Shown here one piece after another: positions 5,471 to 57,289 of a stretch of 64,000 nt of DNA. Below the pieces are notes generated by a model. That model saw nothing but the letters and a program-made list of their open reading frames with translations, made no database searches and was not told the DNA's origin. Within the stretch, counting starts at the first letter, position 1, and the number at the start of each line of letters is the position of its first letter. Source of the DNA: Eledone cirrhosa (taxonomy: Eukaryota); NCBI GenBank assembly GCA_964016885.1, contig CAXHJY010000704.1, positions 1 to 64,000 on the forward strand. Direction: 5' to 3'. The position numbers were made by a program, and so were the translations under genes.

Positions 5471-5660
5471 ATAGGAACTAGTAGGACCCCGACGGCTGAG
5501 CTCAAGCCGTTTCAACGGCTAATTCTGGAATTAGCCGTCGAAACGGCTTGAGCTCAGCCGTCGGGGTCCTACTTGTTCCTATTACCCACTCTACTACCCT
5601 ATGTATTGAGTACTTTGGTGCGTTATGGTCCACCTGGTTCCTTACCACATTTCCTTCGTT
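5471..5660 (+). mobile_element. Penelope-like pLTR remnant: 112-bp palindrome containing the 3' half of a hammerhead ribozyme
   Basis: 5471-5525 is the reverse complement of 5528-5582 (2 mismatches); right arm GAAA-CGGCT-tgagctc-AGCCG-TC; tail 5587-5640 resembles the reverse complement of 57142-57200. Confidence 0.7.
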
Positions 5661-5681
5661 ATATATATATATATATATATA

Positions 5682-5852
5682 TCATCATCATCATCATCAT
5701 CATCATCATCGTTTAACGTCCATGTTCCACGCTTGCATGGGTTTGGATGGGAGTTTTCCCACTTGAGGCAAGATTGGTTGTCTTGCTCGCATAGGACTGT
5801 CTGGCGGGTTTTCTACAGCTGGATGCCCTTCCTAACACCAACCACATTTACA

Positions 5853-5853
<1 letters not shown>
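5682..5853 (-). mobile_element. RTE subfamily B 3' tail inserted in (TA)n
   Basis: Matches the 3' end of 9432-12662; TA runs on both sides. Confidence 0.85.
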
Positions 5854-5887
<34 letters not shown>

Positions 5888-6436
5888 AACAAGCAGGTAG
5901 GACCAGTGATTGACTATTATTATTACAGTCACCTTGGCAGGATTTGAAATCTTTTATGGCCCGTTACGTTCTGAGTTTGAATCCCACCAAGGTTAACTTT
6001 GCCTTTCATCCTTACAGGGGTCAATAAAATAAAGTACCAGTAATGCACTGGGTAATTGCTGACCTTGTGTCAAAAGTAGAAACAGTTATTTACAGTCACC
6101 TGAGTTGGAATGCACAGATTTTTTCAATATTTCCTAAGTAAAATGCTTTGTTTAAATTCTAACTACAGGTCATCTAAATGTAGGGAATTAGTAGCCCACA
6201 GTTCATTATCATAGTAACATATGCTCTTGTGTGGCATCCAAAAGATGCAGGGTTTGATTCCTTACATAGGCTGCTGTCCACATTTTTCCATCTCCAGTCG
6301 TATGTTACCCGATTTATCCAACTATTATTTATAATGTTCGACTATTATTATTATGGTCATTTGCACTGGGATGCACACATTTCAAATTTTCTCAATGCTT
6401 CTTCCATTGTATATACACACACACACACACACATAT

Positions 6437-8352
6437 TCTGGCTTGGTTTCTATAGCTGGATGCTTTTCCTAATGTCAACCTCATTCACAGTGGGTGCTTT
6501 TTGTCATGACACATACACGATCACATTAGAGTGTGGGCCGGAAACTTTTGTCATGACATCTACATAACCAATTTACAGTGAGGGCTGGGTGCTTTTTTGT
6601 CATGTCACCTCCACAAAAACTTTCAGTGTGGGCTGCACTTTTTTTGTCATGTTGCCATCATGACCACTTTACAGAGTGGGCTGGGAACTTTGATGGGAGA
6701 GGTGTGAGGACTGAGAAGGTGGGTATATGGACATGTGTGAGGAGCAGTGTTAGGATGGGAGAGGTAAATGGAAGGGGTGGTGAAAGTGGAGTTGGTGTAT
6801 ACTAGATATATACTTCAGCCTGTGCTTATAGAAGGTGTGTGGAATGGGGTGGTGGAAGTGAATGTAGTGCATACTATATGTATGCTTCAGCCTGTGAACA
6901 AGGTAAGGCAGGTCTTTTGTATTACTGTATAATGCCACAGATCCCAGTCCTATGACAACACCTTTAAGAGGTGCAATTGTGCAAGGTCAGCTTTTATCAC
7001 CTCATCCCAAGTTTTCCTACTCCATAGCTCAGCACCTTTTTTATACAGCTGTCATCCTTCATAAACATCATATGTCCATACCAATGCAATCTCCTCTCCT
7101 GCACACTGCATCTGATTCCTCTTATGCCTAGTTTCTCTCTCAGTTCATTTATACTTTGCCATTCACATATATTAATATTTCACATCCATCGAAGCATGCA
7201 AGCTTCATTTTTTCCAATCTTTGCAAGTCCACTGCACACAGTGGCCAGGCCTTTCTACCATGCAACATTGCTGTTTGTATACACACATCATACAATCTGC
7301 CTTTCATTTTGAGGGGTAGTAGCTCCCTGAACTTCTTCCATCCTGTTCTCACTTTGGTTACTATACTTTCGGAACACCCACCTCTGTTGCTAATTTGGTC
7401 ACACAAGTAGCAGAAGTTGTCAACTGCTTCTACCAAACCTTCCCAGAATTTGATAGCACTTGTTTCCTATGGTCATTTGCTGTTTACTGCTCTTGTGCAA
7501 AAGCTACATGTAAAAACCTACATTTTTAGCTAAACTACCTGAGCTCCCTCTACATTTCTTGTGTACCCATAGTTTGCATTTGGGACAGAGGATGGAATTT
7601 CTACCTACACCTTTCCTACACACTGAGTAAGGCCATTTCCCTGAGGGGATCATAGCTCTGTTTTCCATTCTACTTACAAGAACCTTAGTCTTTGTCAGGT
7701 TGACTTTAAGACCCTTTGTTTGTAGGCCATGCTTCCAGGTTTGGAATTTCTTCTCTAATTCCGCCATAGACTCAGCTATAAGTCTAAGAACATCCTTGTA
7801 CAGGAGTTCCCATGAGCAGCCAGTCTTAAACACCTCTGTTATAGCTTGCAGAATGATAATAAACAGAAGCGGGCTAAGACCAGAGCTCTAGTGGATGCCA
7901 ACCTGCATGCTCAATTCCTCGCTATAATCATTGTTAACCATAACTTTGCTGACTGCTCCTCTATACATGGTTTGTACAACTTTCACAAGCCAGTCATCTA
8001 TTCCAAGTTTTCTAAGAGCCCATCAGATTATGGTACAGGGGACTCTGTCAAAGGCTTTCTCCAGATCAACAAATGCCAGATAGAGCAGCTTACGTTTGTT
8101 TAGCTTGGTGCTTTTCCTGTAGCTGCTTCACAAGGAAGAGAACATCTGTGGTGCTTTTGCTTGGCACAAATCTGAATTGCATCTCATCTAGATTAACCCA
8201 GTCAACTGTGCTATAACTCTTTCATGACCTGGTCCATCAACTTGATGCCTCTATAGTTTCCTCTATCTAGTGCATCCCCTTTACCATTGTGGTAGTTGAC
8301 AATGATGGTGCTGCGCCAATCATTTGGTATGACACCATTTAACATTACTTGG
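6437..8352 (-). mobile_element. Degenerate 5'-truncated RTE LINE with 48-bp 3' UTR array
   Basis: ORFs 7504..7833 and 7149..7436 match the RT, PHD-like and C-terminal regions of the intact ORF, with stops and frameshifts; 48-bp units at about 6480-6680. Confidence 0.9.
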
Positions 8353-12857: not shown

Positions 12858-13200
12858 TTTTACAGTGTGGACTGGGCCCTTTTGTCATGTCACTTACATG
12901 ACCACTATATAGTGGTCATGGAGGTGTCACAACAAATGCGCCCACTCCACTCAGTAAAGTCTCAACAAAAATTGCCCAGTCCACACTGTAGAGTGGTCAT
13001 GTAGGCGTCACAACAGAAAGCACCCAACACACACTGCAGCAAATGTGGTTTGCATTAGGTAGGACATCCAGCTGTAGAAACCAAGCCAAAATCAGTTCTG
13101 TATGAATGAATCATGGTCCCTCAACCTGATCTCTCACAAAGGGACAGCCCGACCTACCCATGCTAGCATGGAAGATGGACGTTAAACGATAATGATGATA
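12858..13200 (+). mobile_element. RTE 3' UTR fragment with an inverted first unit
   Basis: 48-bp units plus terminal ..CCCATGCTAGCATGGAAGATGGACGTTAAACGAT; perfect 24-bp palindrome at 12897-12920. Confidence 0.75.
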
Positions 13201-16620: not shown

Positions 16621-18343
16621 GGCATTACTGTTTAAAGGGAGTGTGAAACAGAATGTGCCTCTGTTAGTAGACAAAAACATTATATGCTGCATCTGTGCAA
16701 AAGTGTGTTTATCCCTAATGGGAGTAAAAAGCCACGTCCATGTTGCTTATACTTAAGAGGAGAGTCAAGCAGTAGCATTGTTCGAAATTGAGTTGCGATC
16801 ATCATCATGTATGTATGTATGTACATATGAATACACATATGCATGTATGAATGTATGTATGTATGTATGAATGTCGGGTCACTCTTGAGTGCTGCTGGTA
16901 ACATGTACAACCTGTCGCATGGTCGGCTCATCCGTGACCAAACCGGCAGCCCCACCAAGTTTACTTGGTGAGGAGGGTGATTTGGGACACCCTGCAGGAC
17001 AAAAAACAAAACCTGTCAAAGGGCAGAACTCATAAGAGTCAATGGCCAACGAAAAATGTGTAAATATGTATATACACATGTACATATGTATATGTATGTG
17101 TGCATATGTATGTATATGCACGGGGACATAGAAATAGTCAGGCTGGATACCCGATCGCGCAGTTAAACCACTGGAAGTGAAGGACCCCTAGCCTTTGTCA
17201 GGGCATTCTTCTAGGGGAAGGCAACTCAGGAAACTGGGATAACTCTGATATAAAACCTGCAGTTCAGTAGTTACTGATGATGTTGATCCTTTCTTCTTTT
17301 GGGTTATAGCTACTGTCGCTCAGAGAGTGAGATTGGCTCAGTGCACAGTCATTCCTCCCTTTAAAAAAAATCTTCACGCTCAGGCATTGCACAATAGAAT
17401 TAATTAACAATTACTAATAATGGTATATCGTGCAATGGCCATACTCGATAACAAGGGGGCAGCCATCATGTACGAATGCATGTATGTACGAATGAATGAA
17501 GGCATGTATGTATGTATGAATAAATGAATGCATGCATGTATATTATATGAACAATTTGATCGCAACATGCTTTAAGAACTTTGCCTAAAAACATTGTAAT
17601 GAGAGGGCCTGCTTGACCTGCCAATAGTAGCAGTAACTAAATTACCTCTGAAATCAAAAATTTTACTAAAGAAGGACATGATGTACAATGTACTCATAGA
17701 TGTAAAAAAAGATTAGCTCTTTATGACTGGACATAATTTTGATCACAATTCTACTCAATAAAAGTTTCTATAAAATTTTTCTAATGTGCTGGTCAAACCT
17801 TATATGAAAATTACACTAGAGCTCAATATACCCTTGTTGTTGTTGTTACAATTCCTGTAAGCCTTGATAGAACAGATCTATGACCAAAGATGTGACCATC
17901 GGCCATTTCCTTTTCCCCTTCATACATATTATTTGTAGGATTTCTTTACTGAATGAGTTTTTCCATTTTCTAAGAGGGCAAAATGTGATTCATGAAATAT
18001 TTTGCTCCTGTCTATAGCAAGTTGAGGAGCTCTGTAGAGGTGTACACTTGTGGAAGTATTTAGAATCAGTTAATATATATCAGGATGAAGCTACAATATT
18101 AAATTCATACAATTGATTTCATACATTCCATATATATATATATATATGTAGGAGGTGAGTTTTATTGTAGTACAATAAAGCAATGCAGATATCGGATAAA
18201 AAGCACTCTACAGTTTGTAGGACTGGAGTATACATAATATATAAGATCAAAAGATGGTTAAAAGAGTTCCAAACTACTTTTCATATGTTGATTTAAAACT
18301 GCACTATTCACAAGTGTTTTTTAACCTTCATATCATGTCTTCC

Positions 18344-18414
18344 TATTTTATCTGATGAAAACACAAATGTTATTGCATGATGATATTTGTTTTTGAAATG
18401 CGCATAATAAAATA
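18344..18414 (+). ncRNA. Minimal type I hammerhead ribozyme (Penelope pLTR type), intact core
   Basis: TATTTTAT-CTGATGA-[stem II ACAAATGTTATT/GATGATATTTGT]-GAAA-TGCGCA-TA-ATAAAATA: 8-bp stem I, palindromic loop III, cleavage predicted after 18406. Confidence 0.85.
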
Positions 18415-18444
18415 CATGGAACTCTTTTAACCATCTTTAGATCT

Positions 18445-18500
<56 letters not shown>

Positions 18501-18504
<4 letters not shown>

Positions 18505-21500
18505 CGTTAGGGATGGATGAGCTGGGAATACACGAGCAACTCTGAATCAATAGATGAAATATGAATCTGCGAGCTACCAAGCACCCACGTGAAGCGCCAA
18601 CCCAGAGACCCTCCCCTACGAGTGTCGACAAATGCCCAAAACTCCGAGTTGGTACCATCAATGTAGGCTCAATGAAAGGAAGAGCAGGAGAAATCGTAGA
18701 AATGCTAGAGCGAAAGGAAGTTGATGTATGCTGTGTGCAAGAGACTAGATGGAGAGGAGGGTCTGCTAGAGTCCTTGTAGGAAAAAGCCAGTGCTACAAA
18801 TTTTTCTGGGTGGGAAATGACGATGGGATGGGTGGTGTAGGTATACTATTAGCTGACAAGTGGGTAGATAAAGTAATCTCAGTGTACAGGGTAAATGCAA
18901 GAATCATTAAACTCAGACTAGTCCTGAATAAGACAATTACCACAATAATATCAGCTTACGCACCCCAATCGGGGCTGCCAGACGAACTTAAGGATAGGTT
19001 TTACGAGTCCCTAATACACACTACTGCTCTAACAGACGACAAGGACTTCCTAATCATTGCAGGAGATTTTAACGGACACGTAGGTAAACACTGCGACGGC
19101 TTCAATAGAGTACATGGAGGCCATGGAGTTGGCACAAGGAATGAGGAAGGATTCAGACTTCTAGAATTCTGCGACGCCAATGACATGTCGATATGTAACA
19201 CAAACTTTAAAAAACCCGACAACCACCTGATCACCTATAGATCAGGGGAGCACTCTAGTCAGTTAGATTTTATCCTCATCAGAGGACGTGACAGATGGAC
19301 GGTCGTAAACACAAAAGCCTTCCCTAGTGAGGAATGTACATCCCAACATAGCTTAGTTGTCAGCGACCTCACGGTCAGAACTAGACGAGCCCTGAAACAG
19401 AGGCCAACCTGGAGAAGAAAGATCTGGAAGCTGAAAGTCCCCTCAACCAGTAACAGATTTAAAGATATTTTACTCAACGCCTACGACAGTAAAGAAGAAC
19501 AGATAGAGACATTTAACGTAGAAGAGAACTGGGAGTTCCTAAAAAATAACTTACTAGAGGCGACGGATGAGGTTTGTGGCTGGAGTAAGACCTCAAGCAG
19601 GAGGAGAGTGACTTGGTGGTGGAACAATAAGGTAGATGAAGCAGTCAAGGCCAAGAGACAGGCATGGAAAGAATGGAAGAACGGGGGGAGCAGGGTACAT
19701 TACATAGAGACCAAGAGGGAAGCTAGGCGACAAGTATACTTAGCTAGGAGGGAAGCAGAGGATAGAAAATTCAAGCATGTTTTACAACGTGAGGACCAGA
19801 AACAGGAGGTATTCAAGATTGCGAGGCAGTGTGTCAGAGATAGTTGTGATGTCATTGGAGAGAAGTGTATCCGGAATGATAAAGGTGAGCTTGCCCTCAC
19901 AAGTGCTGAGAAGAAAGATGCATGGAAGAGTCATTATGATAGATTACTAAATGAGGAGAATGCATGGGAAGAAGAGACCCTACCCCACGTAGACCCTATA
20001 GAGGGACCAGCAGTACAAGTCAGCGGCAGCGTAGTAAGTAAGGCAATCAGAGATATGAAGATAGGGAAGGCAACCGGTCCATCGGGTATAGCTGCCGAGA
20101 TGCTGAAGGCATCTGGGTCTGTAGGTCACACTATAACCACACGTATCGTTAACCAGGTAATACTAGAGGGGGCCATACCAAAAGATTGGTGCAGTAGCAT
20201 CATTGTCAACTGCTACAAAGGTAAAGGCGATGCACTAGATAGAGGAAACTATAGAGGTATAAAGTTGATGGACCAGGTCATGAAAGTAACAGAAAGAGTT
20301 ATAGCACAGCTGATTAGGGACCGGGTGAATATAGACGAGATGCAATTTGGGTTTGTTCCAGGGAAAGGCACCACTGATGCGCTCTTCCTTGTGAGGCAAT
20401 TACAGGAAAAGTACCTAGCTAAAAGTAAGCCACTCTACTTGGCATTTGTCGACCTTGAGAAAGCCTTTGACAGAGTTCCACGTGCAGTAATCTGGTGGGC
20501 TCTTAGAAAACTAGGAGTAGATGAATGGCTTGTGAAAGCGGTACAAGCCATGTATAGGGGAGCAGTCAGCAAAGTTAGGATTGGCAATGAGTATAGCGAG
20601 GAATTTAGCGTACAGGTTGGGGTCCACCAGGGCTCTGTTCTTAGCCCTCTCCTGTTCATCATAGTCCTGCAGGCAATAACGGAGGAGTTTAAGACCGGAT
20701 GCCCATGGGAACTCCTGTATGCTGATGACCTCGCACTCATAGCTGAATCTATGGTAGAACTAGAGAATAAATTCCAAACCTGGAAGCAGGGACTAGAGAG
20801 AAAGGGCCTCAAAGTCAACATGACAAAGACTAAGGTCCTTATAAGTAGACGAGAAAACAGAACCCAGATCCCCTCAGGGAAATGGCCTTGCTCAGTATGT
20901 AGGAAAGGTGTAGGTAGGAACTCCATTCTTTGCCCCAAATGCAAACAATGGGTACACAAGAGATGTAGCGGGATCTCAGGAAGCTTAATTAAGAATGTAG
21001 GATTCACATGCAGCAGCTGTGCTGAAACAGCAAGCAAACAGCCACAGGAAACAAGTACCACCAATCTCTGGGAGGGCCCTGTAGAAACAGTAGACAGCTT
21101 CTGCTACCTAGGTGACCGAATTAGCAACGGAGGTGGGTGCTCAGAAAGTACAATAACTAGGGTAAGAACGGGATGGAAGAAGTTTAGGGAACTACTACCA
21201 CTGCTAGCTGCAAAAGGCTTCTCCCTCAGAATGAAAGGCAGACTGTATGATGCGTGTATCCGAACAGCGATGTTGCATGGTAGTGAGACCTGGGCGCTGA
21301 AGGTGGAAGACTTACGTAGATTAGAGAGAAACGAAGCCTGCATGCTCCGATGGATGTGTAACAGTAATATACGTGAACGACAAAGCATAAATGAATTGAG
21401 AGAGAGACTGAGCATAAGAGGAATCAAATGCTGCGTGCAGGAGAGGCGGTTACGCTGGTATGGACATGTGATGCGTATGAAGGATGACAGCTGCATAAAA

Positions 21501-21981
21501 AGGTGCAGAGCACTAGAAGTTGATGGAAACCGCGGAGTGGGGAGACCCAAGATGACTTGGGATGAGGTGATAAAAGCCGACCTTACCCAACTACACCTCT
21601 CAAAGTCAATGAGACACGACCGTGACTTCTGGCGTCACGCAGTAATACAGGGTACCCGACCTCCCATGGGTACATGCTGAAGCATATAAACAATATGCCC
21701 CCCCCCCCACCGCAAGGTGGTCGTGGAGGTGCCACGGCAAAAAAGCACCCAGCCCACACTGTAAAGTGGACGTGTAGGCGCCACGAAAAAGCACCCAGCA
21801 CTCACTGTAAATGAGGTTGGTGTTAGGAAGGGCATCCAGCTGTAGAAATCAAGCCAGATCAGTTCCTGTATGAGCAAGGCATGGTCAGCCGACCAGACAC
21901 TGCCCACAACAGGACAACCCGTCTAACCCATGCTAGCGTGGAAGAACGGACGTAAAACGGTGATGATGATGATGATGATGA

Positions 21982-21985
<4 letters not shown>
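18501..21985 (+). mobile_element. Apparently complete RTE-clade LINE, subfamily A
   Basis: Short 5' leader, single uninterrupted ORF, 3' UTR, (GAT)n tail; flanked by (TA)n on both sides. Confidence 0.95.
18561..21680 (+). CDS. RTE LINE polyprotein: APE endonuclease, reverse transcriptase and internal PHD-like zinc finger (1039 aa)
   Basis: VGTINVG, CVQETRW, GDFNGH, SQLDFI, SQHSLV (APE); YRGIKL, QFGF, FVDLEKAFD, GVHQGSVLSP, YADD, FCYLG (RT); RRLRWYGHV..GRPKMTW (RTE C-terminus). Confidence 0.97.
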   Translation: MNLRATKHPREAPTQRPSPTSVDKCPKLRVGTINVGSMKGRAGEIVEMLERKEVDVCCVQETRWRGGSARVLVGKSQCYKFFWVGNDDGMGGVGILLADKWVDKVISVYRVNARIIKLRLVLNKTITTIISAYAPQSGLPDELKDRFYESLIHTTALTDDKDFLIIAGDFNGHVGKHCDGFNRVHGGHGVGTRNEEGFRLLEFCDANDMSICNTNFKKPDNHLITYRSGEHSSQLDFILIRGRDRWTVVNTKAFPSEECTSQHSLVVSDLTVRTRRALKQRPTWRRKIWKLKVPSTSNRFKDILLNAYDSKEEQIETFNVEENWEFLKNNLLEATDEVCGWSKTSSRRRVTWWWNNKVDEAVKAKRQAWKEWKNGGSRVHYIETKREARRQVYLARREAEDRKFKHVLQREDQKQEVFKIARQCVRDSCDVIGEKCIRNDKGELALTSAEKKDAWKSHYDRLLNEENAWEEETLPHVDPIEGPAVQVSGSVVSKAIRDMKIGKATGPSGIAAEMLKASGSVGHTITTRIVNQVILEGAIPKDWCSSIIVNCYKGKGDALDRGNYRGIKLMDQVMKVTERVIAQLIRDRVNIDEMQFGFVPGKGTTDALFLVRQLQEKYLAKSKPLYLAFVDLEKAFDRVPRAVIWWALRKLGVDEWLVKAVQAMYRGAVSKVRIGNEYSEEFSVQVGVHQGSVLSPLLFIIVLQAITEEFKTGCPWELLYADDLALIAESMVELENKFQTWKQGLERKGLKVNMTKTKVLISRRENRTQIPSGKWPCSVCRKGVGRNSILCPKCKQWVHKRCSGISGSLIKNVGFTCSSCAETASKQPQETSTTNLWEGPVETVDSFCYLGDRISNGGGCSESTITRVRTGWKKFRELLPLLAAKGFSLRMKGRLYDACIRTAMLHGSETWALKVEDLRRLERNEACMLRWMCNSNIRERQSINELRERLSIRGIKCCVQERRLRWYGHVMRMKDDSCIKRCRALEVDGNRGVGRPKMTWDEVIKADLTQLHLSKSMRHDRDFWRHAVIQGTRPPMGTC

Positions 21986-22016
<31 letters not shown>

Positions 22017-22160
22017 TAGATAGATAGATATATATAAGCAATGAGTTATTTAATTTGTTGGTTATTCAACAAATTTAGTTTATAACAAATTAGAAGCACT
22101 CTTCTGGAATATAATATCAATAATATTAATAAATGGAAACTATCTTTATAAAACCATATT

Positions 22161-22222
22161 TATTTTATTATATATATTTCAAAGGTACCAACATTTTTGG
22201 TATGCTCTCATCAGATAAAATA
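22161..22222 (-). ncRNA. Minimal type I hammerhead ribozyme, intact core
   Basis: Minus strand TATTTTAT-CTGATGA-gagcaTACCAAaaatgTTGGTAccttt-GAAA-TATATA-TA-ATAAAATA. Confidence 0.8.
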
Positions 22223-22378
22223 TAAAAGTTGTTTTACAGATAGTGACATATTCAAAACAAGAACTTATCGTTTTGAGTTCTGTTTGAATATTCAAACAGA
22301 ATATTCAAAATATTCAAACAGAACTCAAAACAATAAATTCTTGTTTTGAATATGTCACTATCTGTAAAACAACTTTTA

Positions 22379-22440
22379 TATTTTATCTGATAAGAGCGTA
22401 TCAAAAATGTTGGTACCCTTGAAATATATATAATAAAATA
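22379..22440 (+). ncRNA. Mirror hammerhead copy with G8A core mutation (likely inactive)
   Basis: TATTTTAT-CTGATAA-..-GAAA-TATATA-TA-ATAAAATA. Confidence 0.7.
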
Positions 22441-22492
22441 AATATGGTTTTATAAAGATAGTTTCCATTTATTAATATTATTGATATATATA

Positions 22493-22542
<50 letters not shown>

Positions 22543-22879
22543 TGTTTCTACTTTTTGGCATTACTGGTACTTTATTTTATCGAACCTATGAGTTTATAGT
22601 GTTCACTATTTTCATTGGTAAGTTGAGAAAAACTCAATCCACTATATATATGTATACCATTTATGTTATGTTGTTTACCAATGAGTAGAACTGATTGTTC
22701 TGATTAATAAACGATGATGCAATAAATTAAAGCACTAAACGTTATGCAAATCATCCATCATAGGTGTAGTATCCCAAAGCTGGTGCAGGGACGGAGTTAA
22801 GTATTCATTTAAAAGCAAGAGAAAGCTAGATTGGAAACATTCTTTAAAGTTTTAATTTTGCGAAACACTATACATATTT

Positions 22880-22944
22880 CAATGGCCCAGTTTCATCATC
22901 TGATCATGATACAATACTTAGGTGATTTCATCAGGGGTTCATTG
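22880..22944 (-). ncRNA. Degenerate hammerhead motif (stem III deleted)
   Basis: Minus strand CAATGaaCCC-CTGATGA-aATCAcCT..AGaTGAT-GAAA-ct-GGGcCATTG. Confidence 0.45.
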
Positions 22945-23090
22945 TGAAATTAGTTATATACAATAACACGATTATGGCAAACACAACAAGAGGGTAGCAG
23001 TTAGATTTGGTTCGGGGATGGCTCACCAATTTGGAGTTATTGTAACGGCAAGCCATCCCTGAATGAGTGTGTGTGTGTATGTATATATAC

Positions 23091-23134
<44 letters not shown>

Positions 23135-23138
<4 letters not shown>

Positions 23139-23442
23139 GAATGTATATATAGTGTATTTTGCAATACACTGTATGCTGAATTAAAAGCATTTTGAAGACC
23201 ATACGCTATTGTTTTAAAGTAACGACATTGTCGCTTACTTAAATTTTCGGCAGACAGGGGGAGATAAGTTGACAGCGCTGTTTCGTTCTTTTTGGTACTT
23301 ATCAAAACTCACTACTCTCCCCGTCTGCGAAAATTTAAGTAAGCAACAATGTCGCTACTTTAAAACAATAGCATATGGTCTTCAAAATGCTTTTAATTAA
23401 GCATAGAGTGTATTGCAAAATACACTAAATATACTTTCATAT
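23135..23442. repeat. About 308-bp fold-back with a degenerate hammerhead at its apex
   Basis: Arms about 23135-23263 and 23315-23442; minus-strand centre TGAGTT-TTGATAA-GTAC..GAAC-GAAA-CAGCGCTG-TC-AACTTA; TA runs on both sides. Confidence 0.8.
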
Positions 23443-23486
23443 ATATATATATATCGCAATTTCAGAGCACCAATTCTAATATATGT

Positions 23487-27935: not shown

Positions 27936-27966
<31 letters not shown>

Positions 27967-28293
27967 TTCAAGAGTAACCAATCTTAAAGAGAGAGATGGA
28001 GATAGGAGAGGAGATATGAGAGGAGAGATTGGTGAGTTAGTTAGAAGCCAAAGCGTAAAGGCATGTGCTCAATGTGCAATATGCAGTAGAAAGCAGCTAG
28101 GTGGCTGGGTTCATGCAGAAGTTAGGCGCGCAGAGCTGGAAATATTCATTAGTTAAGCACAACAAGACCACAAATTTCACAAGGAAGACATTATTAAAAG
28201 ATTGTCAACATATTTTAGTTTGATGTAAGGAATGTAGAGAATAATAATAATAATATTAATAATAATAATGTCCGTTTACAATTGTTTCGCTAC

Positions 28294-29122
28294 CAACTCC
28301 ACTAGAACCCCTAGAAGGAATAGACCTAGAAATATCACCTGGCTTAACCCCCCATTCTCATCTAATCTAGCCACTAATATCCCCAAATGCTTCTTCTCTA
28401 TCCTATCTAAACACTTCCCTCCCAACCATAGATATTACAAACTCTTTAATAAAAATAACATTAAAATCTCATTCTCCACTACACCTAACCTAGCTAGCCA
28501 CATCGCGTTCAGTAACCATCATAAGCTAAGACAGTATAACTCCCACACCGCGGTACCACCACCCCTATCAAATACACCACGCCACTACACCAATAATTAC
28601 TCTAGTAGCACACCTCCCCCATCTAATCCTTCTAGCACGGACCTACCGCTTAGGTTAAACAACCCTACTCTCACTAACCGCAGAAGCAACTGCAACTGCC
28701 GTTACCCCAATGCATGCCCATTAAATGGACACTGCCTGACACCCAACATAGTCTATAGGTGCACGGTTAAGACTGCTTCGAATACCAGCTCTTATATCGG
28801 GTCTACCTCTAACCCTTTTAAGGTACGCTATAATGCGTACTCTTTTTCCTTCCAAGACCCTAGCAACAGATGTTCGACATCGCTAGCTAGGCTCATTAAA
28901 AACCTTAAATTAAACAACGTTCAACACTCACTAAAATGGGATATCGTGGCTGGGGCTCAACCGTTCAATGGACGAAGAAAATCTTGTGATCTCTGTATTA
29001 CAGAAGCATATTACATAACTCTATCACAACCTCTACCGATTAACGATAGAACGGAAGTAACTATTAGCTGTCAACATCGAAGGGCTAATTCCTTCGCCAA
29101 TAGAAATTTTGACCCAACTTAG
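28294..29122 (+). pseudogene. Penelope-like ORF C-terminus: linker, Cys-rich region and GIY-YIG endonuclease
   Basis: RNITWLNPPFS..KHFPPNHRYYKLFNKNNIKISFS; CNCR..CPLNGHCL..NIVYRC..SYIGST..FKVRY; CDLCITE..INDRTE..CQH. The annotated ATG at 28268 comes from the inverted repeat. Confidence 0.88.
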
Positions 29123-29517
29123 TCATGTAGCCCCATTTTTACTTGTAGCTAATAAGTTAAATTGCTATGAACAACTCGATAATTATAAGTTACCTCCCCT
29201 ACATTGTCTCTCAATTAAAAAAAAATGTTTAAATTAGCACTTAACTATAAACACCCACAATTTCTAATCTCTCGAGAAGTTACTTCCCCTGAAACCACCC
29301 TCTAATTAGTAAGGTAAATATGCCCTTTGGCAGCCATCTTGTTACCAATAGGCAGATCTCACACAATGCAGCCTCGACAGATGAATACTGCTTGATTATG
29401 GCTGACAACTGATGCAACCAGGACACCATAGTAAAAACCAATATATGGAACATTATATTATGTAACATTATCTTATTAATTTAATCTATATTCCTTTGAA
29501 GTTCCGATGAGCCGCTC

Positions 29518-32500
29518 TCATCATCATCATCATCATCACCGTTTTACGTCCGTTCTTCCACGCTAGCATGGGTTAGACGGGTTGTCCTGTTGTGGGCAGT
29601 GTCTGGTCGGCTGACCATGCCTTGCTCATACAGGAACTGATCTGGCTTGATTTCTACAGCTGGATGCCCTTCCTAACACCAACCTCATTTACAGTGAGTG
29701 CTGGGTGCTTTTTCGTGGCGCCTACACGTCCACTTTACAGTGTGGGCTGGGTGCTTTTTTGCCGTGGCACCTCCACGGCCACCTTGCGGTGGAGGGGGGG
29801 GGGCATATTGTTTATATGCTTCAGCATGTACCCATGGGAGGTCGGGTACCCTGTATTACTGCGTGACGCCAGAAGTCACGGTCGTGTGTCATTGACTTTG
29901 AGAGGTGTAGTTGGGTAAGGTCGGCTTTTATCACCTCATCCCAAGTCATCTTGGGTCTCCCCACTCCGCGGTTTCCATCAACTTCTAGTGCTCTGCACCT
30001 TTTTATGCAGCTGTCATCCTTCATACGCATCACATGTCCATACCAGCGTAACCGCCTCTCCTGCACGCAGCATTTGATTCCTCTTATGCTCAGTCTCTCT
30101 CTCAATTCCTTTATGCTTTGTCGTTCACGTATATTACTGTTACACATCCATCGGAGCATGCAGGCTTCGTTTCTCTCTAATCTACGTAAGTCTTCCACCT
30201 TCAGCGCCCAGGTCTCACTACCATGCAACATCGCTGTTCGGATACACGCATCATACAGTCTGCCTTTCATTCTGAGGGAGAAGCCTTTTGCAGCTAGCAG
30301 TGGTAGTAGTTCCCTAAACTTCTTCCATCCCGTTCTTACCCTAGTTATTGTACTTTCTGAGCACCCACCTCCGTTGCTAATTCGGTCACCTAGGTAGCAG
30401 AAGCTGTCTACTGTTTCTACAGGGCCCTCCCAGAGATTGGTGGTACTTGTTTCCTGTGGCTGTTTGCTTGCTGTTTCAGCACAGCTGCTGCATGTGAATC
30501 CTACATTCTTAATTAAGCTTCCTGAGATCCCGCTACATCTCTTGTGTACCCATTGTTTGCATTTGGGGCAAAGAATGGAGTTCCTACCTACACCTTTCCT
30601 ACATACTGAGCAAGGCCATTTCCCTGAGGGGATCTGGGTTCTGTTTTCTCGTCTACTTATAAGGACCTTAGTCTTTGTCATGTTGACTTTGAGGCCCTTT
30701 CTCTCTAGTCCCTGCTTCCAGGTTTGGAATTTATTCTCTAGTTCTACCATAGATTCAGCTATGAGTGCGAGGTCATCAGCATACAGGAGTTCCCATGGGC
30801 ATCCGGTCTTAAACTCCTCCGTTATTGCCTGCAGGACTATGATGAACAGGAGAGGGCTAAGAACAGAGCCCTGGTGGACCCCAACCTGTACGCTAAATTC
30901 CTCGCTATACTCATTGCCAATCCTAACTTTGCTGACTGCTCCCCTATACATGGCTTGTACCGCTTTCACAAGCCATTCATCTACTCCTAGTTTTCTAAGA
31001 GCCCACCAGATTACTGCACGTGGAACTCTGTCAAAGGCTTTCTCAAGGTCGACAAATGCCAAGTAGAGTGGCTTACTTTTAGCTAGGTACTTTTCCTGTA
31101 ATTGCCTCACAAGGAAGAGCGCATCAGTGGTGCCTTTCCCTGGAACAAACCCAAATTGCATCTCGTCTATATTCACCCGGTCCCTAATCAGCTGTGCTAT
31201 AACTCTTTCTGTTACTTTCATGACCTGGTCCATCAACTTTATACCTCTATAGTTTCCTCTATCTAGTGCATCGCCTTTACCTTTGTAGCAGTTGACAATG
31301 ATGCTACTGCACCAATCTTTTGGTATGGCCCCCTCTAGTATTACCTGGTTAACGATACGTGTGGTTATAGTGTGACCTACAGACCCAGATGCCTTCAGCA
31401 TCTCGGCAGCTATACCCGATGGACCGGTTGCCTTCCCTATCTTCATATCTCTGATTGCCTTACTTACTACGCTGCCGCTGACTTGTACTGCTGGTCCCTC
31501 TATAGGGTCTACGTGGGGTAGGGTCTCTTCTTCCCATGCATTCTCCTCATTTAGTAATCTATCATAATGACTCTTCCATGCATCTTTCTTCTCAGCACTT
31601 GTGAGGGCAAGCTCACCTTTATCATTCCGGATACACTTCTCTCCAATGACATCACAACTATCTCTGACACACTGCCTCGCAATCTTGAATACCTCCTGTT
31701 TCTGGTCCTCACGTTGTAAAACATGCTTGAATTTTCTATCCTCTGCTTCCCTCCTAGCTAAGTATACTTGTCGCCTAGCTTCCCTCTTGGTCTCTATGTA
31801 ATGTACCCTGCTCCCCCCGTTCTTCCATTCTTTCCATGCCTGTCTCTTGGCCTTGACTGCTTCATCTACCTTATTGTTCCACCACCAAGTCACTCTCCTC
31901 CTGCTTGAGGTCTTACTCCAGCCACAAACCTCATCCGTCGCCTCTAGTAAGTTATTTTTTAGGAACTCCCAGTTCTCTTCTACGTTAAATGTCTCTATCT
32001 GTTCTTCTTTACTGTCGTAGGCGTTGAGTAAAATATCTTTAAATCTGTTACTGGTTGAGGGGACTTTCAGCTTCCAGATCTTTCTTCTCCAGGTTGGCCT
32101 CTGTTTCAGGGCTCGTCTAGTTCTGACCGTGAGGTCGCTGACAACTAAGCTATGTTGGGATGTACATTCCTCACTAGGGAAGGCTTTTGTGTTTACGACC
32201 GTCCATCTGTCACGTCCTCTGATGAGGATAAAATCTAACTGACTAGAGTGCTCCCCTGATCTATAGGTGATCAGGTGGTTGTCGGGTTTTTTAAAGTTTG
32301 TGTTACATATCGACATGTCATTGGCGTCGCAGAATTCTAGAAGTCTGAATCCTTCCTCATTCCTTGTGCCAACTCCATGGCCTCCATGTACTCTATTGAA
32401 GCCGTCGCAGTGTTTACCTACGTGTCCGTTAAAATCTCCTGCAATGATTAGGAAGTCCTTGTCGTCTGTTAGAGCAGTAGTGTGTATTAGGGACTCGTAA

Positions 32501-32805
32501 AACCTATCCTTAAGTTCGTCTGGCAGCCCCGATTGGGGTGCGTAAGCTGATATTATTGTGGTAATTGTCTTATTCAGGACTAGTCTGAGTTTAATGATTC
32601 TTGCATTTATCCTGTACACTGAGATTACTTTATCTACCCACTTGTCAGCTAATAGTATACCTACACCACCCATCCCATCGTCATTTCCCACCCAGAAAAA
32701 TTTGTAGCACTGGCTTTTTCCTACAAGGACTCTAGCAGACCCTCCTCTCCATCTAGTCTCTTGCACACAGCATACATCAACTTCCTTTCGCTCTAGCATT
32801 TCTAC
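29518..32805 (-). mobile_element. RTE LINE subfamily A, 5'-truncated, near-identical to 18501-21985
   Basis: 992-aa open frame 29821..32799 equals residues 48-1039 of the intact copy; three substitutions seen; (CAT)n tail at 29518. Confidence 0.96.
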
Positions 32806-32955
32806 CCTGTCTTTAACCTAATTCATTCAATCTGAAAATATTGAAGAGATAAGACACTTTGCCATTCTTCTCTGCTAAAATGTACCACTAGAGCTGATTC
32901 AAATTTTCCCAGCCAGCCATCCACCTAATCTACGAAGGTATTTTAGCCTACATAT

Positions 32956-33250
32956 TGTCGTTAATATTATGATGTTCCCTGCTGTATTAGCGTTAAATTT
33001 TCCCTGCTGTATTAGCGATAAATTTTCGAGGGTTTCTCTTAGTAGCTTTTTCATGTCGTTAATATTATGATGTTCCCTGCTGTATTAGCGTTAAATTTTC
33101 CCTGCTGTATTAGCGATAAATTTTCGAGGGTTTCTCTTAGTAGCTTTTTCATGTCGTTAATATTATGATGTTCCCTGCTGTATTAGCGTTAAATTTTCCC
33201 TGCTGTATTAGCGATACATTTTCGAGGGTTTCTCTTAGTAGCTTTTTTCA
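32956..33250. repeat. 3 x 98-bp tandem repeat with internal 26-27-bp sub-repeat
   Basis: TGTCGTTAATATTATGATG at 32956, 33054 and 33152; TTCCCTGCTGTATTAGCG twice per unit. Confidence 0.9.
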
Positions 33251-33717
33251 TGACGTTATTATTGTTAATTTTACTGATGTAGTATTAACTTATTAACTTG
33301 GATATTTACCATGCGGTATTCTAATCCTATTGTATCTCTCTCAGTTATTTACCATGCGACCCTCAGTTCCTACCCCCCCCCCCCTCTATGCACTTCTTTA
33401 AGGCTTACTACCCTGTCTTTAACCTAATTCATTCAATCTGAAAATATTGAAGAGATAAGACACTTTGCCATTCTTTTAAATATGTTAATTATCTTTTAAA
33501 TATGTTAATTATTTTCAACTGAACCAGATCAATTATATATAGTCATCTGATCCAGAAATATTATATGGAGTAGCGAAACAATTGTAAACGGACATTGTTA
33601 TTATTAATATTATTATTATTATTATTCTCTACATACCTTACATCAAACTAAAATATGTTGACAATCTTTTAATAATGCCTTCCTTGTGAAATTTGTGGTC
33701 TTGTTTTGCTTAACTAA

Positions 33718-33761
<44 letters not shown>

Positions 33762-34750: not shown

Positions 34751-35425
34751 TTCGTTTCTGAATTTGTTTAGCAAGATTCCTTATCTGAAAACGTGTGTTG
34801 AAACCGATATTGTTATACTTTGGGAGGGTCATGTTGCCAATAAGAAACACATGCACCAGTTGTTTTCACTTCAATTTATTATAAATTTCTGGTTGCTTGG
34901 TTGGTTCTATAACTGGATGGTCGTTCATATATTGTCAAAGTTCTTTCGTCACACATTATGTGACATCTCTAGTGAATGGGGATTCCTTTCTTTATTTTTT
35001 ATTTTGTGCCTCTCCTTTGTTCTGCCCTACGCCATCTTGTTTGTGTGCTTAGTTTGCACATGTGTTAAATCCAGGTGTCTGTATGTGTTTTTATTTGTTT
35101 ATTTACTTGTTTATTTATTTGTTTATTTACATGTTACTAGTTGGTTGTTTGTTCTATGTGTGTGTTTTCATTTTGTCCTTAATTATAAGTTGTGATGTTG
35201 CTATTCCATTCATGTTTTTTATTTAATTTTGATTGGAGTTCATTTATGTTTATTGCCTGTGATTTGTCTAAACATTGCGTCTTTTCTGTGTGTAGATTCT
35301 ATTTTTATCTCTATGTTCTCTAATTTGCCCTTATGTTCTATTTTAGCATGTTGGTGGAGTATTGATGAGTCTTTCCTATCTCGGAGTTCTCGCCAGTGTT
35401 CATTTAATCGTTCTCCTATGCTAAT
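34751..35425 (-). mobile_element. Penelope-like element family 2, 3' fragment with pLTR
   Basis: Near-identical to 38738-39345; encodes SIGERLNEH..; 3' end abuts (TA)n. Confidence 0.85.
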
Positions 35426-35834
35426 ACTCTTCTCCTAATACTCAATAGACTATATCAATGCACTTAACTAATGATTGACCTATTGGAACTCTATAACCAG
35501 CAAAACTATTATTTAAAAATAAAGATTCATTTTCATTCATTTCATTTTACGTCCACTTTTCCCTGCTTGCAAGGGTGGGGCGGGAACTGATTCTGGCTTG
35601 ATTTCTACACCTGGATGCCCTTAGATTAAAGATTACATTAAATAATAAAGATTAGATTAAATACAGTAATTTTACCATTAAACATCTCACACAAACCCTA
35701 AATTTCACATATTCCTCTTCCATCACAAATTCGTATCCTGTTATTAATATGGAGGAGAAATAAAAACAAAAACAACAAAACATATATGAATGCGATTTTT
35801 TTTACAAATACCATTGAATTACAACAGTATTTTA

Positions 35835-53030: not shown

Positions 53031-53754
53031 TGGTTCAAATCATAAGGAAGAAAGCTGTTCTAAGATCTAGCTCTTGAAGCATATGAAACAGCTTTAGTGC
53101 TATATCCATTACAGCGCAGTCTCAGCTATTATATATCAAACCAACACCATTTAACTGCAGGAAATCTATTGAATATCAACTTGGATATTAATCACATTCA
53201 ATTAGAGACACTGTATCTAGGTTAGAAAAGGTACACCATATCCCTGTGTTGTAAGAAGTAATTAAAAAGGGCTAGTGCCAGTAGAACATCTGGCTATAAA
53301 ACATTGTCTCAAAAAAGGAACCCATGATGAGTATGGAGCCTGCCATGAGTCCTGCCCAGATAACCCCAGCTTTAGCAGAAAAAAATGACCTGATAACATT
53401 TGTGTTTATGTGTTCATTGGTTATCCTAATCCTCCAGACCACAAGACAAACTGTATATATAATATATATAAGTATAAAGGATGATGTGCTCAAGTACAAA
53501 AATGCTATAAAGATAGCTTATAAAATAAGGTAAAGACCCTAAAAAGAAGTGGCCATTAGCTGCTATGAGGAACTGAACCCCATATCTTCCAGATACTAGG
53601 GTTCAATTCCCCATAGCAGCTGATGGCAACTTCTTTTTCCATTTTTTTTTTAGGGTCTTCATCCTTCATCCATGTCCCTACACCTCCTCCCTTCTCCAGA
53701 TAAGTGCCCTAAATCTACCTCACCAATCCCCATGTACCTCTTCTACCCCATCCC

Positions 53755-54177: not shown

Positions 54178-54502
54178 CATGAAATGTTCCTTTATTTTTG
54201 AAAGCTGCCACAATGCATATATTAACTAAAATATGGTGGAAGAAATCAGGTAAATTACTCTCAGAGATGTCTAAAAGTACACAAATGGAGAAATAGTTAT
54301 CAAAGCCATCTGGCATACAGCAGATACACAGGTCGATTCCCACAGGCATCTCTGCCTAACTTTTCCCCATCTTTAAGAATGATTTACTCAATTTATTCGA
54401 CTATTTTATAGTTAATGTGTTGCATTACGCAACTTTTTATAAGAAAAGCAAATAAATTTCAAATTTTCAAACTTGTCCAATATCTTTGTAAACGTCTCAG
54501 TT

Positions 54503-54504
<2 letters not shown>

Positions 54505-54546
<42 letters not shown>

Positions 54547-54578
54547 TATATATATATATACACATACATATAAAACAT

Positions 54579-54647
<69 letters not shown>

Positions 54648-54648
54648 T

Positions 54649-54723
<75 letters not shown>

Positions 54724-54726
54724 CAT

Positions 54727-54763
<37 letters not shown>

Positions 54764-54822
54764 TATATACATACATATATATATATATACATATATATAT
54801 ACATACATATATATATACATAC

Positions 54823-54879
<57 letters not shown>

Positions 54880-54992
54880 CATATATATATATACATACAT
54901 ATACATACATATATATATACATACATATATATATATACATACATATATATACACATATATATATACATACATATATATACATATATACATAT

Positions 54993-55037
<45 letters not shown>
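54505..55037. repeat. Compound (TA)n/(TACA)n microsatellite
   Basis: About 530 bp of TA/TACA repeats. Confidence 0.97.
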
Positions 55038-55042
<5 letters not shown>

Positions 55043-55332
55043 ATATTACAAGACACAAAAATAATTGCTTTATCTATAAAATCCATTCTAATTGTTTCTG
55101 TTTTTTGGGGGGGTTTGTTACATTTTTGTATTTTCTGGTATCTTCTGAAGTTGTTTTCTGAAAACTAGTCTTTCTTATCCAATTAAAATATAATTTAATT
55201 TAACTACACACTACTTTCTAACCAATTATAAAGCTCTTGATTATATCAGATTGTTGTTGTTGTTGTTGATGATGTTCGTATTATTTATAGTATCATCATT
55301 GTAGTTCTTGTTATTGTTGTTTCATATGTGAA

Positions 55333-55371
<39 letters not shown>

Positions 55372-55374
<3 letters not shown>

Positions 55375-57109
55375 AAGAGACAGGCATGGAAAGACTGGGA
55401 AAATGGCGGTAGCTAAGAAAGTTGATAGTTTTAGGGTCAAAGATGCAATCAAGGAGATGAAGAATAGTAAAGCTGTGCGACCATCAGAATTAGTTGCTCA
55501 GATGCTAAAAACATTGAGAAAGGTAGGAGTCAAACTAGTAACCCTTATAGTAAATCAAGTAATACAGGATGGAGTCATACCCAATGATTGGCACAGCAGT
55601 ACAATCATTAACTGCTACAAGAGCAATGGTGATGCCCTAGAAAGGAGTAACTACAGAGGAATAAAACTAATGGACAAAGTTATGAAAGTGACCAAAAGAA
55701 TTATAGCACAGCTAATTAGGGAAAAAGTCAAAATAGATGAGATGTAACTTGGTTTCACGCCTGGAAAAAGTACTATGGATGCATTTTTCTTAGTGACACA
55801 ACTACAAGAGAAGTTCCTAGCCAAAAATAAACCACTTTTGTTGAGCTAGAGAAAGCCTTTGACAGAGTACCCCAATCTCTTATCTGGTAGTCCTTAAGGA
55901 AATTAGGTGTAAAAGAATGGTTTGTAAGAGCTGCAGAAGTTATGTACAGAGGAGCTGTCAGTAAAGTGAGAGTAGGAAATGAGTTTAGTGAGGAATTCAA
56001 GGTACAGGTAGGAGTTCATCAAGGTTCAGTTCTTAGCTCACTGCTGTTCATCATAGTTTTTCAGGCCATAACAGGAGTTTAAAAAAGGCTGCTCATGGGA
56101 GATTCTCTATGCAGATGATTTGGTCCTTATAGCTGAAACCAAAAATAAAGCTAGAAAATAAATTTCGATTATGGAATCTGAATTTGGAATCAAAAGACAT
56201 GAGGGTAAACTTGGCGAAAACTGAAGTGCTAGTGAGAAGGAGAGAAGATTGGACTCAGATTCCTTCAGGATAGTTGCCATGCTCAATATGCAGAAAACGA
56301 GTAGGCATAAACTCCATACAATGTACACGATGGAAATCTTGGGTAAACAAAAGATGTAGTGGGATATAAGGTAGACTAACAGGAAGGGAGAACTTTGCTT
56401 GGAGAAAATGCATAGGAGAAATTGAGAGAAAGACAGCTAATGATATAAAACTTTTCCAGTCACAAGAAGAATCCACAGATGTGGCTGATAGCTTCTGCTA
56501 TTTAGGTGAGTTAATTAGCAGTGGAAGAGGGTGCACCAAAAATATAATAGATAGAATAAGGATAGGATGGAAGAAGTTTAGAGAACTGCTCCCACTGCTG
56601 ACAACAAAAGTGTTCTCCCTATATGCAAAAGCAAGGCTGTATGATGCCTGCGTGTGGTGTTCAATGCTACATAGTAGTGAAACACAGGCTGTGACCGCAG
56701 AGGATATACGTAGACTGGAGAGAAATGAAGCAACCATGTTTCATTGGATGTGCAATAAAAACATGAGAGAAAAACAGAGCTTGGACGAGCTGAGAAAGAA
56801 GCTGGGCTTAAGAGGAATCCGAGATGGTGTGCAAGAGAGAAGACTGCATTGGTATGGACATCTGATGCACATGGACAATGACCGATGGGGGTAGAAAAGC
56901 CAGCAAATCCCAGTGGAAGGAAGCTGCAATAGAGGACAACCAAGAACGACCTGGGCAGAGGTTGTGAGAGCGGACCTCAAATCACTAAGACTGGCAGAGG
57001 AGATGATGAAGGACTACCAGATAACAGACAAGTGGAGAGATGCCGTGCTGAGTAGGACCCTTCCAACCCATGCAAGCATGGAAAAGTGGCTCGAAAAACG
57101 ATGATGATG

Positions 57110-57110
<1 letters not shown>
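55372..57110 (+). mobile_element. Degenerate RTE LINE subfamily C
   Basis: ORFs 55403..55747, 56481..56894 and 56913..57104; many stops; between TA runs; (GAT)n tail directly after the ORF end. Confidence 0.9.
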
Positions 57111-57141
<31 letters not shown>

Positions 57142-57223
57142 AGCCCAGGTTGAATCGGGGGTAACCATAATAAGTAAGGTACTCAATACATAGTAGAGTA
57201 TATACAATATTTAATATAGAAAT

Positions 57224-57274
57224 GGCTTCTACAGGACTAGAACTGTTTCATTCAAAGGAAATCATCAGGAAAAC
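57224..57274 (-). ncRNA. Type I hammerhead ribozyme with true stem III, in a 135-bp pLTR remnant (57142-57276)
   Basis: Minus strand TTTC-CTGATGA-tTTCctttGAAt-GAAA-CAG-ttctagtc-CTG-TA-GAAG (GUA site). Confidence 0.7.
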
Positions 57275-57289
57275 TTATATATATTTATA

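What the first reader, a model, noticed from the sequence alone, without database searches (positions are those of the whole stretch)
5471..57276. Series of hammerhead-bearing fold-back mini-elements with one shared architecture
Seen: hammerhead motifs (CTGATGA..GAAA..TH) or halves at 5528-5568, 18344-18414, 22161-22222, 22379-22440, 22880-22944, 23265-23311, 29501/33568 and 57224-57274, from several distinct sequence families. Five loci share one layout: an inverted copy of the 3' tail joined to a 5'-truncated sense copy, embedded in (TA)n. Known: Penelope-like elements carry minimal type I hammerheads in their pLTRs and often have inverted pLTR pieces. Inference: these 130-370-bp non-coding units are either very short PLE insertions or a non-autonomous ribozyme-hairpin class mobilised by the GIY-YIG PLEs. 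In three loci the inversion point falls in or beside the ribozyme stems, suggesting structure-directed fold-back during reverse transcription.
Basis: partly seen in the sequence, partly recalled or inferred. Interest (0 to 1): 0.78.

Follow-up and report, generated by a model that had tools for sequence, protein, structure and literature searches.

The report
Head-to-head stubs of Penelope-like retrotransposons
The small hammerhead-bearing palindromes are real and are short two-armed insertions of a known class of jumping gene (Penelope-like elements); their arms likely come from two separate priming events and mostly stop at what is probably the element's transcription start, not at the ribozyme stems.

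Summary
Five head-to-head units and two single arms sit in (TA)n, each from a different multicopy family (77-2467 first-look candidates). Families A, B and F are pseudo-LTR ends of RT + GIY-YIG Penelope-like elements, and kilobase insertions show the same layout. Family E is a 310-nt head-to-tail repeat like non-LTR retrozymes. No coding parent was found for C, D or G.

Each unit pairs an arm with a long 3' end and an arm with a fixed short 3' end (the PLE 'tail'). The short arm often reaches further 5' (12:0 in B), which one folded-back cDNA cannot produce, so two primings are inferred.

5' ends pile at a family-specific point: inside loop II in A, at stem I in G, and 106-192 nt upstream of the cleavage site in B, C, D and X. 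Where a parent is known this is the A of a TCA motif, sometimes preceded by an extra G, so it is probably the RNA start (untested). Junctions vary between copies, so this is not a self-copying hairpin class.

The architecture is published, and earlier notes of this scan found it in other genomes.

The parts
5471..5529 (-). Unit A, short-end arm (element coordinates -39..+20 relative to the hammerhead cleavage site)
   Evidence: 96.6% to long copy L022
5528..5660 (+). Unit A, long-end arm (-35..+98): 3' half of the hammerhead plus 78-nt tail; junction inside loop II
   Evidence: family; full-length parents L241-L244
18148..18271 (-). Unit B, long-end arm (+10..+134), no hammerhead
   Evidence: family
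18271..18458 (+). Unit B, short-end arm (-136..+51) with intact minimal type I hammerhead at 18344-18414
   Evidence: GIY-YIG remnant upstream in long copies
22036..22290 (-). Unit C, long-end arm (-122..+143) with intact hammerhead at 22161-22222
   Evidence: family
22311..22492 (+). Unit C, short-end arm (-122..+59), hammerhead at 22379-22440 with one core change; 20-nt junction spacer at 22291-22310
22643..23065 (-). Family D single arm (-197..about +227), older family, hammerhead about 22865-22944 with one stem I mismatch
23134..23320 (-). Unit E, short-end arm with hammerhead at 23264-23312 (TTGATAA core); family is a 310-nt head-to-tail repeat
23316..23480 (+). Unit E, long-end arm (about +6..+168), no hammerhead
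27954..28293 (-). Unit F, long-end arm (-17..+311); starts in stem II
28290..29518 (+). Unit F, short-end arm part 1 (-1333..-98): GIY-YIG frame 28238-29122, 3' UTR and 5' half of the hammerhead
29518..33493 (-). RTE LINE and adjoining sequence inserted into loop II of the F hammerhead (secondary insertion, not part of the unit)
33494..33724 (+). Unit F, short-end arm part 2 (-96..+135): 3' half of the hammerhead and short end
57131..57269 (-). Family G single long-end arm (about -43..+99) with degenerate hammerhead 57224-57274

Best explanation
These units are short head-to-head insertions of the hammerhead-bearing pseudo-LTR of Penelope-like retroelements, likely made when both sides of a cut (TA)n target each prime reverse transcription near the 5' end of the element RNA and the two short cDNAs are joined.

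Shown here:
(1) Arms are pLTR sequence, and in full-length family A copies the tail runs straight into the RT/GIY-YIG frame.
(2) One arm ends at a fixed long 3' end and the other at a fixed short 3' end.
(3) Each arm often holds sequence the other lacks.
(4) 5' ends pile at one family-specific site.
(5) Junctions differ between copies, while the two arms of a unit share variants.

Inferred:
(a) The two 3' ends are the two internal RT start sites described in vitro for an anole PLE.
(b) The pile-up site is the capped transcription start (initiator-like TCA, extra G), so stubs are complete copies of the RNA leader in the 5' pLTR, and long copies come from priming in the 3' pLTR.
(c) Both cDNAs usually come from one RNA or one source locus.
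(d) The cDNAs are joined through 1-5 nt microhomology or added bases. Whether one cDNA first folds on itself is unresolved.
(e) The hammerhead is a passenger that was mostly uncleaved on the copied RNA.
Family E is likely a non-autonomous tandem or circular RNA using the same machinery.
For: Parents. L241-L244 show a 5' pLTR continuing into the ORF and a second pLTR about 2.8-3.5 kb downstream. Long B copies have a GIY-YIG remnant about 1 kb upstream. F carries GIY-YIG in the window. Kilobase head-to-head pairs with one long and one short end occur at L121, L122, L244, L245, L246, L248, L249 (A) and L226 (B).

Short end fixed in 31 of 33 (A), 17 of 20 (B), 11 of 17 (C) and 12 of 16 (G) inverted arms. 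In 25 G loci chosen without regard to the tail, 21 have two arms; exactly one arm is long in 19 and none has two long arms.

Short arm further 5' versus long arm further 5' (5 nt or more): A 7:7, B 12:0, C 8:5, G 7:5; also in 4 of 5 window units.

Pile-up. 20 of 21 A long arms reaching -30 stop by -46; 13 of 14 B and 7 of 8 C short arms reaching -119 stop by -128. The A of TCA is at -124 in B and C and -45 in A. Two families examined after the idea was formed also fit: X, 6 arm ends at -104..-113 with TCA A at -107; D, 12 of 20 long-query arms at -184..-198 with TCA A at -192. About 9-16% of positions lie within 2 nt of a TCA by chance.

G before the start A in 14 of 28 arms (A 8/10, p 0.014; B 4/12, p 0.005; C 2/6, p 0.47).

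Variants shared by both arms: 19, 34 and 13 against shuffled means of 2.4, 6.4 and 1.1. Only 5 of 217 arms start within 2 nt of the cleavage site. E 5' ends are scattered over 2-409 nt.

Papers. PMC11167929 (parts 1-2 of 4 read): two internal RT start sites bound the tail, both strands are cut and extended, AT-rich target, uncleaved RNA is the main substrate. PMC2377424 and PMC8557442 (passages): the Penelope start site lies in the pLTR.
Against: No transcript start was observed.

The extra-G signal is modest: at least 3 of the 14 G's could come from the partner arm, A drops to p 0.056 without its two ambiguous cases, and C is not significant.

F shows no clear pile-up in 29 loci. The G boundary is set by my reference, since no parent was found. 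X and D queries were not tail-only, and 11 of 20 X arms pass the site.

Shared variants could also come from later gene conversion between arms, and single-arm differences are 2-4 times more numerous than shared ones. Some short junctions may be later deletions of longer palindromes.

The one mixed-family join I tested (L018) has two long ends and breaks the long+short rule.

Loci are the best-scoring 20-30 of up to 2467 candidates, so they favour young copies. Short-end positions are uncertain by up to about 10 nt because the element is TA-like there. Pfam and PDB searches did not recognise the parent proteins; the PLE call rests on reading motifs and on similarity among the elements.
Confidence: 0.62

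Rival explanations
1. Self-priming on an antisense RNA, the published reading of head-to-head PLE palindromes. An antisense transcript folds at its 3' end, is copied into a hairpin, and the endonuclease trims one arm to give the short end.
For: Proposed in PMC3846280 (Discussion read). It predicts arms with shared variants, and could give the 12:0 bias in B if the loop-bearing arm is the trimmed one. PMC8557442 ascribes the tail to EN-mediated resolution (passages).
Against: It does not predict a sense-strand TCA or an extra G at the pile-up. Single arms joined straight to (TA)n start at the same site (L024, L242, L073, L083). The in vitro system uses sense RNA with start sites at the tail borders. 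Arms can differ by more than 1 kb (unit F, L122).
Confidence: 0.17
2. One reading: a single cDNA stalls at a ribozyme stem, folds back and copies itself.
For: In A the pile-up is in loop II and in G at the start of stem I. 3 of 29 A arms join at the stem III palindrome. Arms share variants.
Against: B, C, D and X pile up well upstream of stem I. In 34 sampled units the tail-less arm extends further 5' than the tail-bearing arm, so neither can be a full copy of the other. A junctions do not keep the whole loop II as a stem II fold-back would.
Confidence: 0.08
3. A non-autonomous hairpin element class, transcribed and moved as a whole palindrome, or a MITE-like fold-back DNA element.
For: Fixed outer ends and high copy numbers. 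A few short junctions recur (L003/L005/L042). No coding parent was found for C, D or G. In C all 13 shared variants are private to one unit, which fits many source loci.
Against: Junctions differ in nearly all copies, and the recurring one sits on different subfamily backgrounds. Arms have unequal outer ends. The same ends flank kilobase coding insertions.
Confidence: 0.08
4. The pile-up is an RT arrest site (U-run or hairpin) or an RNA processing site rather than a transcription start; the rest of the two-priming model stands.
For: A, B and C have a T-run just before the TCA, and A junctions show A/T stutter (L021, L026). C has a hairpin at that end.
Against: X and D have the TCA without a T-run. 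The extra G is unexplained. Long copies pass the site.
Confidence: 0.15

Closest known systems
Insertion units of endonuclease-positive Penelope-like elements (pLTR, adjacent inverted 5'-truncated copy, tail at one end); PMC3846280 (passages and Discussion), PMC8557442 (passages), PMC2377424 (passages)
   Same: Head-to-head inverted copy, tail on one arm, hammerhead in the pLTR, (TA)n targets, partial tandems, C-terminal GIY-YIG parents with a Cys motif in the linker (Neptune/Nematis type).
   Different: Most units here are 130-460 bp stubs. Tails are about 30-180 nt rather than 30-40 nt. 5' ends show a sharp family-specific pile-up that the passages I read do not describe.
Anolis Poseidon (PAc) in vitro TPRT, PMC11167929 (parts 1-2 of 4 read)
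   Same: Two internal RT start sites bounding the tail, both target strands extended, uncleaved RNA used.
   Different: A different PLE clade. The parts I read do not address inverted products. Here 3 or more nt of TA-like microhomology lie at the priming ends.
Metazoan non-LTR retrozymes, PMC7229834 (passages), bioRxiv 10.64898/2026.07.22.740005 (part 1 and passages)
   Same: Family E: 310-nt non-coding head-to-tail monomer with a type I hammerhead and no fixed 5' end.
   Different: E copies are mostly partial tandems joined head-to-head with PLE-style long and short ends, and the ribozyme is minimal with a TTGATAA core. A, B, C, D, F and G are not tandem monomers.
LINE-1 twin priming (recalled, not read)
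   Same: Two target strands prime reverse transcription and yield an inversion.
   Different: In twin priming the two parts do not overlap. Here both arms copy the same RNA region.

Membership tests
EN+ Penelope-like element insertion | Parent with PLE-type RT and C-terminal GIY-YIG endonuclease | tested here: met
   Met for A (RT YRDD motif + GIY-YIG), F and B (GIY-YIG remnant) by motif reading and tblastn. Not found for C, D, E, G. Pfam and PDB gave no hit.
EN+ Penelope-like element insertion | pLTRs from partial tandems, 5' pLTR running into the ORF | tested here: met
   L241-L244; family A only
EN+ Penelope-like element insertion | Adjacent inverted 5'-truncated copy with the tail on one end only | tested here: met
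   tails mostly longer than the published 30-40 nt
EN+ Penelope-like element insertion | Minimal type I hammerhead motif in the pLTR | tested here: met
   Sequence-level only:
EN+ Penelope-like element insertion | Hammerhead self-cleavage (monomer, dimer or protein-assisted) | not testable with these tools
   Cofolding favours dimers over two monomers for all 8 motifs tried, but no shuffle control was run and this is not activity
EN+ Penelope-like element insertion | AT-rich or microsatellite target; target-site duplication | tested here: inconclusive
   (TA)n flanks are the rule; a duplication cannot be read inside a microsatellite and no empty allele was obtained
Neptune clade of PLEs | Phylogenetic placement of the RT | not tested
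   Only the linker Cys motif, shared by Neptune and Nematis (PMC8557442 passage), was seen; no tree built
Non-LTR retrozyme (family E) | 150-450 bp head-to-tail monomers, at least two with a hammerhead | tested here: inconclusive
   310-nt monomer; 2 of 30 arms are long enough to hold a second hammerhead (inferred from length); no long array seen
Non-LTR retrozyme (family E) | Expressed linear and circular monomer RNA | not testable with these tools
MITE / fold-back DNA element or self-copying hairpin | Copies share the same internal junction and symmetric termini | tested here: not met
   Junctions vary and outer ends are unequal

The most novel reading that the evidence does not exclude
Thousands of these stubs are a genomic record of the unsolved PLE insertion step. 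One RT-endonuclease dimer primes from both target strands at two start sites on a single capped, uncleaved sense RNA, runs both cDNAs to the cap and joins them. This would explain the inverted pLTR and the one-sided tail together and replace the antisense self-priming model. In family A the transcription start would cut through the hammerhead, so only the downstream copy could self-cleave.
Probability: 0.4. Interest if true: 0.62.

Novelty: new member of a known kind. Interest (0 to 1): 0.36.

Why it matters
How PLEs form their inverted and tailed insertions is described as undefined in PMC8557442 (passage). This genome holds thousands of candidate miniature products from at least seven families, with a long-plus-short end rule, arm asymmetry and sharp 5' boundaries. 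These separate the competing models and give exact positions to test by CAGE and in vitro. The elements themselves are an expected kind of repeat, not a new class.

Tried and rejected
Rfam gave no hammerhead match up to E = 1; its 40 matches are sub-threshold miRNA/snoRNA models, the best of them on TA repeats.

Pfam found 0 families for 5 PLE proteins and PDB 0 matches for 1.

Run search for family A: no RNA holder listed; this is no evidence on expression. Laying four contig sets on 21950-23480 gave no empty allele or molecule starts.

Pattern search for a G parent: 25 hits, none sharing upstream sequence. tblastn found no PLE frame in the extended C copies L124-L126 or in L127.

The mixed-family join L018 was tested as support for the long+short rule and failed (two long ends).

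One search had a boundary bug and was redone; a pattern printed nothing and was fixed. Rows dropped before counts: flank duplicates L045, L080, L106, L148, L195, loci fetched twice, and L109 (alignment failed). In C, long-arm ends of -133 to -142 (L091, L095, L110) are probably alignment run-over into the inverted arm. MFE folds of the motifs were not treated as evidence.

Literature searches listed no paper whose title or abstract start describes a start-site pile-up or two-primer origin of PLE palindromes. The library lacks most subscription papers; the original PLE hammerhead and hammerhead-dimer papers are recalled, not read. No supplements were opened, and those of PMC11167929 (Figs S1-S2) may bear on this.
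Full report
Setting. The window is contig C731 of a 3.0-Gb genome, 38% GC, dominated by RTE LINEs and (TA)n runs. The taxon was not determined; my guess of a cephalopod comes from recall only.

Observation. Four short-range palindromes are highly significant and a fifth, larger unit lies at 27954-33724. I label the families A (5471), B (18148), C (22036), D (22643), E (23134), F (27954) and G (57131). Positions below are relative to the predicted cleavage site.

Families. Own-genome searches returned 481 and 436 first-look candidates for A, 77 for B, 1752 for C, 1267 for D, 1259 for E, 1361 for F and 2467 for G. These are candidates, not copy numbers. Only the best 40 were scored and 20-30 loci read per search.

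Parents. An RT fragment from a long A copy has 28,464 candidates genome-wide. Four of the 12 regions fetched around long frames (L241-L244) are full-length: the 5' pLTR tail continues into the reading frame and a second pLTR follows. [quoted passage not shown] Three long B copies have a GIY-YIG remnant about 1 kb upstream, and F carries one in the window. Long C copies share at least 660 nt of upstream sequence with no frame found. D has copies reaching further upstream, which were not searched for a frame. G has no parent among 30 + 25 loci. E is a 310-nt head-to-tail monomer.

Two 3' ends. Inverted arms end at a fixed short position in 31 of 33 (A, +20), 17 of 20 (B, about +52), 11 of 17 (C, +59) and 12 of 16 (G, about +31) cases. 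Partner arms end at +98, +133, +143 and about +95. Those queries required the tail, so I used the 25 G pattern hits as a tail-independent set: 21 have two arms, 19 have exactly one long arm, and none has two. Kilobase insertions obey the same rule. This is the PLE tail, whose borders are the two RT start sites in vitro, with both target strands extended (PMC11167929). One mixed-family join, L018, has two long ends and does not fit.

Why one fold-back is not enough. If one cDNA folded and copied itself, the tail-bearing arm would always reach at least as far 5' as the other. Instead the tail-less arm reaches 5 nt or more further in 7, 12, 8 and 7 units of A, B, C and G, against 7, 0, 5 and 5 the other way and 16, 7, 2 and 3 within 5 nt. 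In the window this holds for A (4 nt), B, E and F. Each arm then has sequence the other lacks, so two templated starts are needed (inference). Arms share variants far above shuffled pairs (19, 34, 13 against 2.4, 6.4, 1.1), pointing to one source per unit or to later conversion. Junctions show overlaps in 36 of 70 units, 1 blunt join and extra bases in 33. Whether the join is between two cDNA ends, or by one cDNA folding and handing over to the other, cannot be told from sequence.

The 5' boundary. 20 of 21 A long arms that reach -30 stop by -46; 13 of 14 B and 7 of 8 C short arms that reach -119 stop by -128. In the parents these sites are the A of TCA (-124 in B and C; -45 in A, with a second A at -41). 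D and a further family X, examined afterwards, pile at -184..-198 (12 of 20; TCA A at -192) and -104..-113 (6 arm ends; TCA A at -107), although 11 of 20 X arms pass it. The chance of lying within 2 nt of a TCA is 9-16% per family. A G precedes the start A in 14 of 28 arms without templated extension, significant in A and B, not in C, and weakened by ambiguous cases. That an extra G marks a copied cap is recalled knowledge. Penelope's start site and initiator lie in the pLTR (PMC2377424, PMC8557442 passages), and an initiator-like TCACT is noted in rotifer pLTRs (PMC3846280). I therefore read the boundary as the RNA start; this is untested. F has no clear boundary, E has none, and the G boundary is reference-limited.

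The ribozyme. The boundary falls in loop II in A and at the start of stem I in G, but well upstream in B, C, D and X, so stems do not set it. Only 5 of 217 arms begin within 2 nt of the cleavage site, in line with uncleaved RNA being the main substrate in vitro. Most full-length A copies and family E use a TTGANAA core; that this is a functional U3-A8 variant is recalled, not tested.

Comparison. The inverted truncated copy, one-sided tail, pLTR hammerhead and microsatellite targeting are published. The published explanation of head-to-head palindromes is self-priming on an antisense template; it remains a rival. Earlier notes of this scan report palindromic PLE stubs and a sharp start near the hammerhead in other genomes; none exists for this genome. 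They are unchecked and were seen after my reading was formed.

Verdict. Real feature, known kind, with an unusually clean dataset for an open mechanistic question. Confidence that these are PLE-derived insertion stubs is about 0.9; confidence in the full two-priming and start-site mechanism is about 0.6. Interest 0.36.

Noticed in passing
A related fragment with a decayed motif lies at about 34920-35434.
   Followed up: partly
window 18689-21707 and 29794-32812: Two RTE LINE copies in opposite orientation differ at only 6 of 3019 bases; one has an open 1040-aa frame and abuts unit B, the other splits the F hammerhead.
   Followed up: partly
tails of A (window about 5585-5615), B, C, G: Just downstream of the short end each family has an ACTC...GAGT inverted pair; A and G share a longer motif there, hinting that G is moved by A-type machinery. 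No folding test was run.
   Followed up: no
L008, L018, L259: Head-to-head joins between different elements: an A arm with an inverted LINE-like 3' end, an A arm with another PLE family (X, 351 candidates), and a G arm with a C-like arm.
   Followed up: partly
L002, L005, L006, L028, L110, L114, L244: Units of different families are nested side by side in the same (TA)n runs, so each insertion seems to seed targets for the next.
   Followed up: no
L243 about 3680-3700: A TATA-like stretch lies about 29 nt upstream of the -41 site in family A, overlapping the 5' strand of stem II; no equivalent was obvious in B or C.
   Followed up: no
window 12859-12958 and 53541-53638: Two further imperfect palindromes of about 100 bp without a hammerhead motif.
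   Followed up: no
window 4833-4946 (-): Fifth hit of the hammerhead descriptor, with a long loop; may be chance.
   Followed up: no
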